From the NCBI RefSeq assembly GCF_003334355.1, contig NZ_QOWP01000017.1: a DNA stretch of 64,000 nt. One strand, written 5' to 3'. A program made the translations under genes and the position numbers. This DNA is from Escherichia coli. Lineage in GTDB: Bacteria > Pseudomonadota > Gammaproteobacteria > Enterobacterales > Enterobacteriaceae. The notes under the pieces are model-generated. The model was given only the letters and a program-made list of their open reading frames with translations. It had not been told where the DNA came from and did not search any database. Below are positions 55,321 to 55,390 of this stretch, piece by piece (within the stretch, counting starts at the first letter, position 1; each line of letters opens with the position of its first letter).

Positions 55321-55390
55321 GGGTGCGGGTTTTCCCCTCACCCTAACCCTCTCCCCAAAGGGGCGAGGGGACCGTCCGGTGCAGTTTTTG
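55321..55390. repeat. GC-rich palindromic intergenic element (boxC-like), possibly also yihS terminator
   Basis: gggtgcgggttttcccctcaccctaaccctctccccaaaggggcgagggg with ccctctcccc/ggggcgaggg near-palindrome and downstream T5; family assignment from memory and uncertain. Confidence 0.4.

What the first reader, a model, noticed from the sequence alone, without database searches (positions are those of the whole stretch)
55321..55390. GC-rich palindromic element between yihS and yihR
Seen: gggtgcgggttttcccctcaccctaaccctctccccaaaggggcgagggg contains near-palindromic G/C tracts and is followed by T5. It looks like a member of a dispersed intergenic repeat family (boxC-like, uncertain) that may also terminate yihS.
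Basis: partly seen in the sequence, partly recalled or inferred. Interest (0 to 1): 0.2.

Follow-up and report, generated by a model that had tools for sequence, protein, structure and literature searches.

The report
Known BoxC triplex-motif repeat copy
The GC-rich element between yihS and yihR is an already catalogued copy of the E. coli BoxC repeat (also called PIT, TMECO or HPGQ); it does not have the layout of a standard terminator, so the finding is real but ordinary.

Summary
The quoted sequence is at the stated coordinates. On the minus strand, 55369..55335 matches the published BoxC/PIT/TMECO consensus (CCCTCNCCC-N3-6-GGGNGAGGG-N3-GGGNGAGGG) exactly, with none expected in shuffles. 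This locus is already listed as TMECO #21 (Holder 2015) and HPGQ 48 (Kaplan 2016).

The family is dispersed. All 5,426 complete E. coli genomes have matches, with a median of 18 places per genome. The motif also occurs in distant phyla.

The terminator idea is not supported by the sequence:
- The T5 run starts about 15 nt after the last hairpin, and the terminator scan finds nothing on this strand.
- The T run belongs to the repeat unit, which spans about 55320-55406.
- A same-orientation copy lies inside the pstSCAB-phoU operon.
- Published reporter assays found no promoter or terminator activity for these elements.

It cannot be fully excluded, because one paper reports that yihR is expressed independently of yihS.

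Extras seen here:
- The element is present in 2,248 genomes and absent in 1,657. The two forms belong to old haplotypes that differ by about 7%.
- The window differs from MG1655 by one SNP.
- The K-12 yihR start codon is probably annotated 8 codons too early.

Novelty: already known. Interest: low.

The parts
55334..55369 (-). BoxC / PIT / TMECO core, type 'A mm'. The minus strand reads CCCTCGCCCC-TTT-GGGGAGAGGG-TTA-GGGTGAGGGG. In + strand coordinates: block 1 is 55360-69, loop 1 is 55357-59, block 2 is 55347-56, loop 2 is 55344-46 and block 3 is 55334-43. Four G-runs on this strand also fit a G-quadruplex motif.
   Evidence: It matches the published consensus exactly, with 0 matches in shuffles. 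It is identical to MG1655 copies #7, #11 and #15. It is orthologous to #21 in Holder 2015 Table 1 and to HPGQ 48 in Kaplan 2016.
55320..55333 (-). Flank of the repeat unit on the block-3 side. It contains GGGTGCGGG (55321-29) and TTTT, and pairs with block 3 to form the first hairpin of the + strand transcript.
   Evidence: It aligns with the family's conserved flank cagtgcNggcctgTT. The inverted repeat is I1, and the fold is. This part is absent from the truncated copy in strain 20.
55370..55406 (-). Flank of the repeat unit on the block-1 side: GACCGTCCGGTGCAGTTTTTGGGTTTGACATCAGCC. It includes the T5 run (55385-89) and TTGACA (55394-99).
   Evidence: The family consensus here is GACcGtccgNgcNcNtttT..gaNtttgtc..aTCAgnCT across 14 type-A copies. 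Of these, 5 have a run of at least 4 T and 8 have at least 3 T at this position. blastn matches from other loci reach window 55406 (H62 and H63).
55396..55425 (+). Locus-specific hairpin GACAUCAGCCUC-ACGG-GAGGCUGUAUGUC, next to the repeat. It covers GGAGG (55411-15) and ATG 55420. It is not part of the BoxC core.
   Evidence: The fold gives about -19 to -20 kcal/mol with z = -3.0. A homologous hairpin occupies the same position in the BoxC-less allele.
54050..55306 (+). yihS (sulfoquinovose isomerase), the upstream gene. Its stop codon is 55304-55306.
   Evidence: ORF list. RefSeq annotation of matching genomes and of MG1655.
55420..56346 (+). yihR (sulfoquinovose mutarotase / aldose-1-epimerase), the downstream gene. 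The K-12 start is 55420. The start used in other genomes corresponds to 55444.
   Evidence: Searches give the 308-aa form. Searches give the 300-aa form.

Best explanation
**Identity (shown).** This is one copy of the BoxC repeat of E. coli, also published as the PIT element, TMECO triplex motif and HPGQ motif.

**Anatomy (shown).**
- The core has three 10-nt G/C blocks on the window's minus strand.
- Block 1 (CCCTCGCCCC) is complementary to block 2 (GGGGAGAGGG), with one mismatch.
- Block 3 (GGGTGAGGGG) is a mirror repeat of block 2. A single strand can therefore fold back twice into a purine-motif intrastrand triplex, or use its four G-runs for a G-quadruplex.
- The repeat unit at this locus is longer than the core, about 55320-55406. 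It brings its own flanks, including the T5 run.

**Transcript (inferred).** The element sits between yihS and yihR, which lie on the same strand. The yihS-yihR transcript carries the C-rich complement. That RNA is predicted to fold into two adjacent GC hairpins.

**Most likely role (inferred).**
- It is a structure-prone, selfish or neutral repeat with no dedicated function at this locus.
- Its main consequence is local indel instability, as shown by its presence or absence among strains.
- At most it acts as an RNA-hairpin barrier that modestly changes the yihS:yihR mRNA ratio. It is not a canonical intrinsic terminator.
- How the family spreads is unknown.
For: **Identity.**
- The consensus matches exactly.
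- The locus is listed as TMECO #21, MG1655 4,070,452-4,070,487, flanked by yihR b3879.
- It is listed as HPGQ 48, midpoint 4070476.

**Dispersal.**
- blastn gives 89,327 places in 5,426 genomes, median 18 per genome, with only 53 on plasmids.
- I re-extracted 14 type-A copies with near-identical cores.
- The motif is abundant in Mitsuaria and in Methylomirabilota and Contendobacter MAGs.

**Structure.** Two hairpins are predicted in RNA and in DNA.

**Not a terminator.**
- The scan finds no terminator-like site on this strand.
- The T run is part of the repeat unit.
- A same-orientation copy lies inside the pst operon.
- The mapped gcvP 3' end is at a separate classical terminator just upstream of a BoxC pair, not at BoxC.
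- Published assays found no promoter or terminator activity.

**Instability.**
- The element is present in 2,248 genomes and absent in 1,657.
- A truncated copy exists in a divergent lineage.
- Holder 2015 reports raised variability around TMECO loci.
Against: - Triplex formation was not detected in vivo by DMS footprinting at another copy (Discussion). The DNA-structure part therefore rests on in vitro data.
- Kaznadzey 2018 found yihS induced by lactose but yihR not. They also saw RNA polymerase binding to yihS/R intergenic DNA. That fits a transcriptional boundary here, which a purely neutral reading does not predict.
- Very high conservation of the core across copies and across phyla could reflect selection for a function that is still unknown.
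Confidence: 0.85

Rival explanations
1. Intrinsic (Rho-independent) terminator of yihS. On this reading the two GC hairpins plus the downstream T5 release RNA polymerase after yihS, making yihUTS one unit and yihR a separate one.
For: - Strong GC hairpins lie just after the stop codon, and a T5 run is at 55385-89.
- yihR is not co-induced with yihS on lactose, which the authors interpret as independent transcription.
- Kaplan 2016 speculated on a terminator role for intra-operon copies.
Against: - The T run starts about 15 nt after the stem, and the scan finds no terminator-like site on the + strand.
- The only stem abutting the U run in the minimum-energy fold is a weak AACUG/CAGUU closing helix.
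- The T run is inherited with the repeat.
- The pstA-pstB copy has the same orientation and a U5 run, yet lies inside a five-gene operon.
- PIT elements showed no terminator activity in reporter assays.
- yihR rises at least 32-fold with the cassette on sulfoquinovose.
- RegulonDB, as used by Kaplan, lists yihS as gene 3 of 4 and yihR as gene 4 of 4 in one operon.
Confidence: 0.1
2. RNA-level stabiliser or processing boundary, as REP elements are. On this reading the double hairpin blocks 3'-to-5' exonucleases. The upstream yihUTS segment would then outlast the yihR segment, uncoupling their levels without true termination.
For: - Two stable adjacent hairpins are predicted in the mRNA.
- The reported difference in behaviour of yihS and yihR mRNAs fits.
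- Many copies lie at gene 3' ends, including six convergent gene pairs.
- The analogy with REP function rests on established knowledge.
Against: - No measurement exists for any BoxC copy.
- Holder 2015 found no positional or operon bias and no link to expression.
- The family has no orientation bias, whereas an RNA function would be strand-specific.
Confidence: 0.15
3. Promoter donor for yihR. On this reading the junction of the repeat with its flank supplies a perfect -35 hexamer (TTGACA, 55394-99) that drives independent yihR transcription.
For: - TTGACA is at 55394-99.
- RNA polymerase band-shift on yihS/R intergenic DNA suggested one promoter.
- The BoxC-less allele has CGACAT at that position instead.
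Against: - The promoter scan finds no sigma-70-like site in 55100-55600.
- The best -10 candidate, TATGTC (55419-24), matches 3 of 6 positions with a 19-bp spacer.
- PIT elements showed no promoter activity.
- No transcription start site was mapped there.
Confidence: 0.1

Closest known systems
BoxC repeat = PIT element (Hoyne and Maher 2000, 2002) = TMECO triplex motif (Holder et al. 2015, PMC4666352) = HPGQ/HPG1 motif (Kaplan et al. 2016, PMC5100583)
   Same: - It matches the consensus exactly.
- Its core sequence is identical to three other MG1655 copies.
- It is intergenic.
- It is the 'type A mm' subtype (TTA second loop, one mismatched base pair).
- This very locus is in both published tables.
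   Different: - Nothing essential differs.
- The window has A at 55340 where MG1655 has T, so block 3 reads GGGTGAGGGG (the family consensus) rather than MG1655's GGGAGAGGGG.
- The copy belongs to a sub-group with a long flank (T run plus TTTGNCATCAG). It shares this with the fimH-gntP, alx-sstT and gcvP-ygfF copies, and partly with pstA-pstB.
REP / BIME elements
   Same: Both are short, GC-rich, hairpin-forming, dispersed intergenic repeats. Both often lie at gene 3' ends, sometimes as inverted pairs.
   Different: The sequence is unrelated. The REP consensus matches elsewhere in the window (31337-31464) but not here. No RAYT-type transposase is known for BoxC. REP has no three-block mirror and complement layout.
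Rho-independent terminator
   Same: A GC-rich stem-loop lies after a stop codon, with a T run further downstream.
   Different: The T run is about 15 nt from the stem instead of abutting it. There are two hairpins plus a spacer. The scan is negative.
MITEs / REPINs
   Same: Copies are small, non-coding and multi-copy. Presence varies among strains. Inverted doublets occur at 5 MG1655 loci and at 27 places in the Mitsuaria DNA fetched.
   Different: No terminal inverted repeats with a target-site duplication appear at the boundary between the present and absent forms. No associated transposase is known. The absent form belongs to a haplotype about 7% diverged, so it is not a recent excision or insertion.

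Membership tests
BoxC / PIT / TMECO | Matches the consensus 5'-CCCTCNCCC N3-6 GGGNGAGGG N3 GGGNGAGGG [G/T/C/-]-3' | tested here: met
   One exact match, minus strand 55369..55335, followed by G at 55334. No matches in 100 shuffles.
BoxC / PIT / TMECO | Three blocks: block 1 complementary to block 2, and block 3 a mirror repeat of block 2 (class II purine-motif triplex potential) | tested here: met
   Read directly from the sequence. CCCTCGCCCC differs from the reverse complement of GGGGAGAGGG at one position. GGGTGAGGGG differs from reversed block 2 (GGGAGAGGGG) at one position, giving a T.A-T triad. The hairpin is predicted.
BoxC / PIT / TMECO | Many dispersed copies per genome, located between genes | tested here: met
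   Median 18 and maximum 32 blastn places per genome in 5,426 genomes. All 14 re-extracted copies are intergenic. This copy lies between yihS and yihR.
BoxC / PIT / TMECO | Locus catalogued as a member in the primary literature | tested here: met
   TMECO #21, 4,070,452-4,070,487, mapped onto the window through L001. HPGQ 48.
BoxC / PIT / TMECO | Forms an intrastrand triplex (shown in vitro by CD, NMR and UV for consensus oligonucleotides) | not testable with these tools
   Nearest-neighbour folding does not model triplexes. Published in vitro data are for type A and B oligonucleotides. The in vivo DMS footprint at copy #3 was negative.
Rho-independent terminator | GC-rich stem-loop followed within 0-2 nt by a T/U-rich tract | tested here: not met
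   The scan of 55100-55600 finds no + strand site. Hairpin 2 ends at 55369/70 and the T5 starts at 55385.
Rho-independent terminator | A transcript 3' end at the site | not testable with these tools
   The Adams 2021 Term-seq tables held as text list no sense 3' end at yihS/yihR, but the operon is not induced in those media.
REP / BIME | REP consensus GCCKGATGCGRCGY..RCGYCTTATCMGGCCTAC | tested here: not met
   With up to 3 mismatches allowed, the only matches are at 31337-31372 and 31429-31464. None is near 55300-55420.
ERIC / IRU | ERIC core AAGTAAGTGACTGGGGTGAGCG | tested here: not met
   No matches with up to 3 mismatches in the whole window.
MITE | Terminal inverted repeats flanked by a target-site duplication at sites where the element is present versus absent | tested here: not met
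   Alignment of the two forms gives an indel of about 77 bp (about 55320-55396) with no duplicated flank. The boundaries are blurred by about 7% haplotype divergence.
Known RNA family (Rfam) | Match to any Rfam 15 covariance model | tested here: not met
   Only chance-level matches, with E at least 1.2 and scores far below the gathering thresholds.

The most novel reading that the evidence does not exclude
The BoxC copy may not be neutral at this locus. Together with its flank it could act as a condition-dependent boundary that uncouples yihR from yihUTS. The mechanism could be partial attenuation or an exonuclease block at the double hairpin, possibly combined with a weak promoter whose -35 (TTGACA, 55394-99) was created at the repeat junction. 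E. coli would then carry two natural regulatory alleles of the sulfoquinovose cassette: 2,248 genomes with the element and 1,657 without. More broadly, the inverted doublets and the hundreds of copies in Mitsuaria could mean that BoxC is mobilised by an enzyme not yet identified.
Probability: 0.12. Interest if true: 0.35.

Novelty: already known. Interest (0 to 1): 0.08.

Why it matters
It matters little on its own. The element, this exact locus and the structural ideas (triplex, G-quadruplex, hairpin) are all published. The function and spreading mechanism of the family have been open questions since the 1990s. The useful residue has three parts:
- It corrects the terminator reading.
- It shows that the repeat unit is longer than the 36-nt core and carries its own T run.
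- It shows that natural strains with and without the element offer a ready-made test of whether BoxC affects expression of a neighbouring gene.

Tried and rejected
- **Rfam scan at permissive E-value:** only chance hits.
- **Promoter and terminator scan:** nothing at the element.
- **REP and ERIC consensus searches:** negative at this site.
- **MITE reading:** no target-site duplication at the indel boundary.
- **Term-seq supplements of Adams 2021:**
  - No sense 3' end at yihS/yihR. This is uninformative because the operon is off in those media.
  - No entries for adk, hemB, tusA or tldD.
  - The gcvP 3' end is at a separate terminator.
- **Other papers:** the supplement of PMC9023263 is not held as text. 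The RepRanger paper does not mention BoxC.
- **Genome-contig scan of the motif:** It shows cross-phylum abundance but gave no Enterobacteriaceae outgroups.
- **Ancestral state of this site (insertion or deletion):** not resolved. A cryptic-clade-like strain carries a truncated copy. The BoxC-less allele keeps a GACAT(A)TCAGGC stretch that resembles the end of the repeat. That hints at deletion, but the similarity is short.

Full report
**1. Observation**

The quoted string is at 55321-55370 and the T5 run is at 55385-55389. The element lies in the 113-bp gap between the yihS stop codon (55304-55306) and the first ATG of the next ORF, yihR (55420). The window's + strand corresponds to the MG1655 minus strand.

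The near-palindromes are real:
- GGGTGCGGG (55321-29) pairs with CCCCTCACCC (55334-43).
- CCCTCTCCCC (55347-56) pairs with GGGGCGAGGG (55360-69).
- Each pairing has one mismatch.

A 54-nt stretch folded as single-stranded DNA gives z = -3.7 on the + strand and -4.35 on the - strand. The 22-nt core occurs once in the window, with none expected in shuffles.

**2. Identity**

Read on the minus strand, 55369..55334 is CCCTCGCCCC-TTT-GGGGAGAGGG-TTA-GGGTGAGGGG. This matches exactly the consensus published for the E. coli triplex motif TMECO, 5'-CCCTCNCCC N3-6 GGGNGAGGG N3 GGGNGAGGG[G/T/C/-]. There is one match in the window and none in 100 shuffles.

The history of the element, as given by Holder et al. 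2015 (PMC4666352):
- It was first described in the 1990s as BoxC.
- It was rediscovered in 2000 as the potential intrastrand triplex (PIT) element.

This exact locus is already catalogued twice:
- Holder's Table 1 lists 23 copies in MG1655. Copy #21 is at 4,070,452-4,070,487, type 'A mm'. The supplement names yihR (b3879) as its neighbour.
- Mapping MG1655 onto the window through locus L001 confirms that it is the same site.
- Kaplan et al. 2016 (PMC5100583) list it as HPGQ 48 of class HPG1, because the four G-runs also fit a G-quadruplex motif.

The window differs from MG1655 by one base: A at 55340 where MG1655 has T. This makes block 3 the family consensus GGGTGAGGGG instead of GGGAGAGGGG. 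The window's core is identical to MG1655 copies #7, #11 and #15.

**3. Dispersal**

A 141-nt query across the element finds matches in all 5,426 complete E. coli genomes:
- 89,327 places in total.
- Median 18 and maximum 32 places per genome.
- Only 53 places are on plasmids.

I fetched 12 other MG1655 loci and some from other strains, and re-extracted the copies.

The DNA fetched contained:
- 145 matches in 0.91 Mb of Mitsuaria chitosanitabida.
- 13 matches in a Methylomirabilota MAG.
- Further matches in a Contendobacter MAG and in an unclassified MAG.

This agrees with the published count of 3,610 copies in 262 proteobacterial genomes.

**4. Extent of the repeat unit**

I aligned 14 type-A copies in the window's orientation. 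Conservation continues beyond the 36-nt core:
- Left flank: cagtgcNggcctgTT. The window's GGGTGCGGGTTTT aligns here.
- Right flank: GACcGtccgNgcNcNtttT..gaNtttgtc..aTCAgnCT.

A T run occupies the same alignment position as the window's T5 in other copies. Five of 14 have a run of at least 4 T (gcvP-ygfF, alx-sstT, pstA-pstB, fimH-gntP and yihS-yihR). Eight of 14 have at least 3 T. blastn matches from the alx-sstT and fimH-gntP loci extend to window 55406 (H62 and H63).

The unit at this locus is therefore about 55320-55406. The T5 came with the repeat and is not a locus-specific terminator tail.

**5. Terminator hypothesis**

Evidence against:
- The consensus scan reports no terminator-like site on the + strand in 55100-55600.
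- The predicted mRNA structure has two adjacent hairpins, 55320-46 and 55348-70. A 14-15-nt spacer follows before the U5.
- The only helix abutting the U run in the minimum-energy fold is a weak AACUG/CAGUU closing stem.
- The pstA-pstB copy has the same orientation relative to transcription and also carries a U5. It lies between genes 3 and 4 of the five-gene pstSCAB-phoU operon.
- At gcvP, the mapped primary 3' end (3046123, minus strand) is at a separate classical hairpin plus T5, just upstream of the BoxC pair.
- Hoyne and Maher 2002, as summarised by Holder 2015, found no promoter or terminator activity for PIT elements.
- On sulfoquinovose, yihR is induced by log2FC of at least 5 together with yihS, yihT and yihU. 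[quoted passage not shown] If that gap has no CsqR site of its own, induction of yihR implies read-through from the yihU promoter.
- RegulonDB, as cited by Kaplan, places yihS as gene 3 of 4 and yihR as gene 4 of 4 in one operon.

Evidence in favour:
- Kaznadzey et al. 2018 (PMC5816610) found yihS induced by lactose but yihR not.
- They inferred independent transcription.
- They also saw RNA polymerase binding to the yihS/R intergenic fragment.

The Term-seq tables available list no sense 3' end here, but the operon is not expressed in those media. My judgement is that a canonical terminator is unlikely (about 0.1). A modest RNA-level boundary effect remains possible (about 0.15).

**6. Polymorphism**

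The form carrying the element is present at 80% or more query coverage in 2,248 genomes. A BoxC-less form, as in O157:H7, is present in 1,657 genomes. Most of the remaining genomes lack yihS and yihR altogether. These carry the 'short yih cassette' described in PMC12608037.

Other points from the alignments:
- The indel spans about 55320-55396, with no target-site duplication.
- Flanking coding DNA of the BoxC-less haplotype is only about 92-95% identical to the window. These are old haplotypes, not a recent insertion or excision.
- A divergent strain (87.6% identity) carries a copy truncated on the block-3 side.
- Both haplotypes keep a hairpin just upstream of yihR (window 55396-55425; z = -3.0 in both).

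This fits the published association of TMECO loci with intergenic variability.

**7. Mechanism**

Shown:
- The identity of the element.
- Its three-block anatomy.
- Its dispersal.
- The predicted hairpins.
- The absence of a canonical terminator layout.
- The presence/absence polymorphism.

Taken from the literature:
- Triplex and G-quadruplex formation in vitro.
- No triplex detected in vivo.
- No promoter or terminator activity.
- Raised local variability.

Inferred: this copy is a structure-prone, selfish or neutral repeat. Its main effect is local instability, with at most a modest influence on the yihS:yihR mRNA ratio. How the family spreads is unknown.

**8. Verdict**

The family assignment is correct. 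The terminator role is not supported. The element is already known, and interest is low.

Noticed in passing
window 55420-55446: The yihR start codon is inconsistent between annotations. K-12 uses ATG 55420 (308 aa). Other RefSeq genomes start 8 codons later, at the ATG corresponding to 55444 (300 aa). The BoxC-less allele is out of frame between the two ATGs, and strain 20 has ATA at 55420. The conserved ATG 55444, with AAGG at 55432-35 upstream, is therefore probably the true start.
   Followed up: partly
window 55320-55396 versus L002, L004, L005 (BoxC-less) and L003 (truncated): The element is present in 2,248 genomes and absent in 1,657. Most of the rest lack yihS and yihR. No target-site duplication is visible. 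The flanking genes of the two haplotypes differ by about 5-8%, so the difference is ancient or introgressed.
   Followed up: partly
window 55340: The window differs from MG1655 by a single base (A here, T in MG1655). The change lies inside block 3 of the motif and restores the family consensus GGGTGAGGGG.
   Followed up: yes
window 55370-55406; L013, L014, L018, L020: The repeat unit is longer than the published 36-nt core. A sub-group of copies (yihS-yihR, fimH-gntP, alx-sstT, gcvP-ygfF, and partly pstA-pstB and fepB-entC) shares GACCGTCCG..GC..TTTT(T)..TTTGTCATCAG on the block-1 side.
   Followed up: partly
window 55396-55425; L002 519-553: A strong hairpin just upstream of yihR is kept in both haplotypes, with the outer stem GACAU/AUGUC retained. 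In the window it covers GGAGG and ATG 55420. In the BoxC-less allele it is preceded by A7, so on the opposite strand it reads as a hairpin plus U7, which looks like an antisense terminator.
   Followed up: partly
window 55394-55399: A perfect -35 hexamer, TTGACA, lies at the junction of the repeat unit and its flank. The BoxC-less allele has CGACAT there. A paper reports RNA polymerase binding to this intergenic region. The scan found no complete sigma-70 promoter; the best -10 candidate is TATGTC with a 19-bp spacer.
   Followed up: partly
window 31337-31372 and 31429-31464, minus strand: Two identical REP sequences (GCCTGATGCGACGCTGTCGCGTCTTATCAGGCCTAC) lie in the same orientation, 92 bp apart. 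They were found while testing REP membership.
   Followed up: no
L029-L135 (Mitsuaria chitosanitabida), L021-L028 (Methylomirabilota MAG): The same three-block motif is very abundant outside Enterobacteria, with 145 matches in 0.91 Mb of Mitsuaria DNA fetched. Of these, 54 copies form 27 inverted pairs in '-+' order with gaps of 30-272 bp. Pairs in E. coli and in the Methylomirabilota MAG are mostly in '+-' order. The arrangement resembles REPIN doublets, but no mobilising enzyme is known.
   Followed up: partly
about window 55091, minus strand (MG1655 4070730 +): The supplementary table of Adams et al. 2021 lists an antisense RNA 3' end inside yihS. The transcript would run on the strand that carries the G-rich sense of the BoxC motif, downstream of the element.
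   Followed up: no
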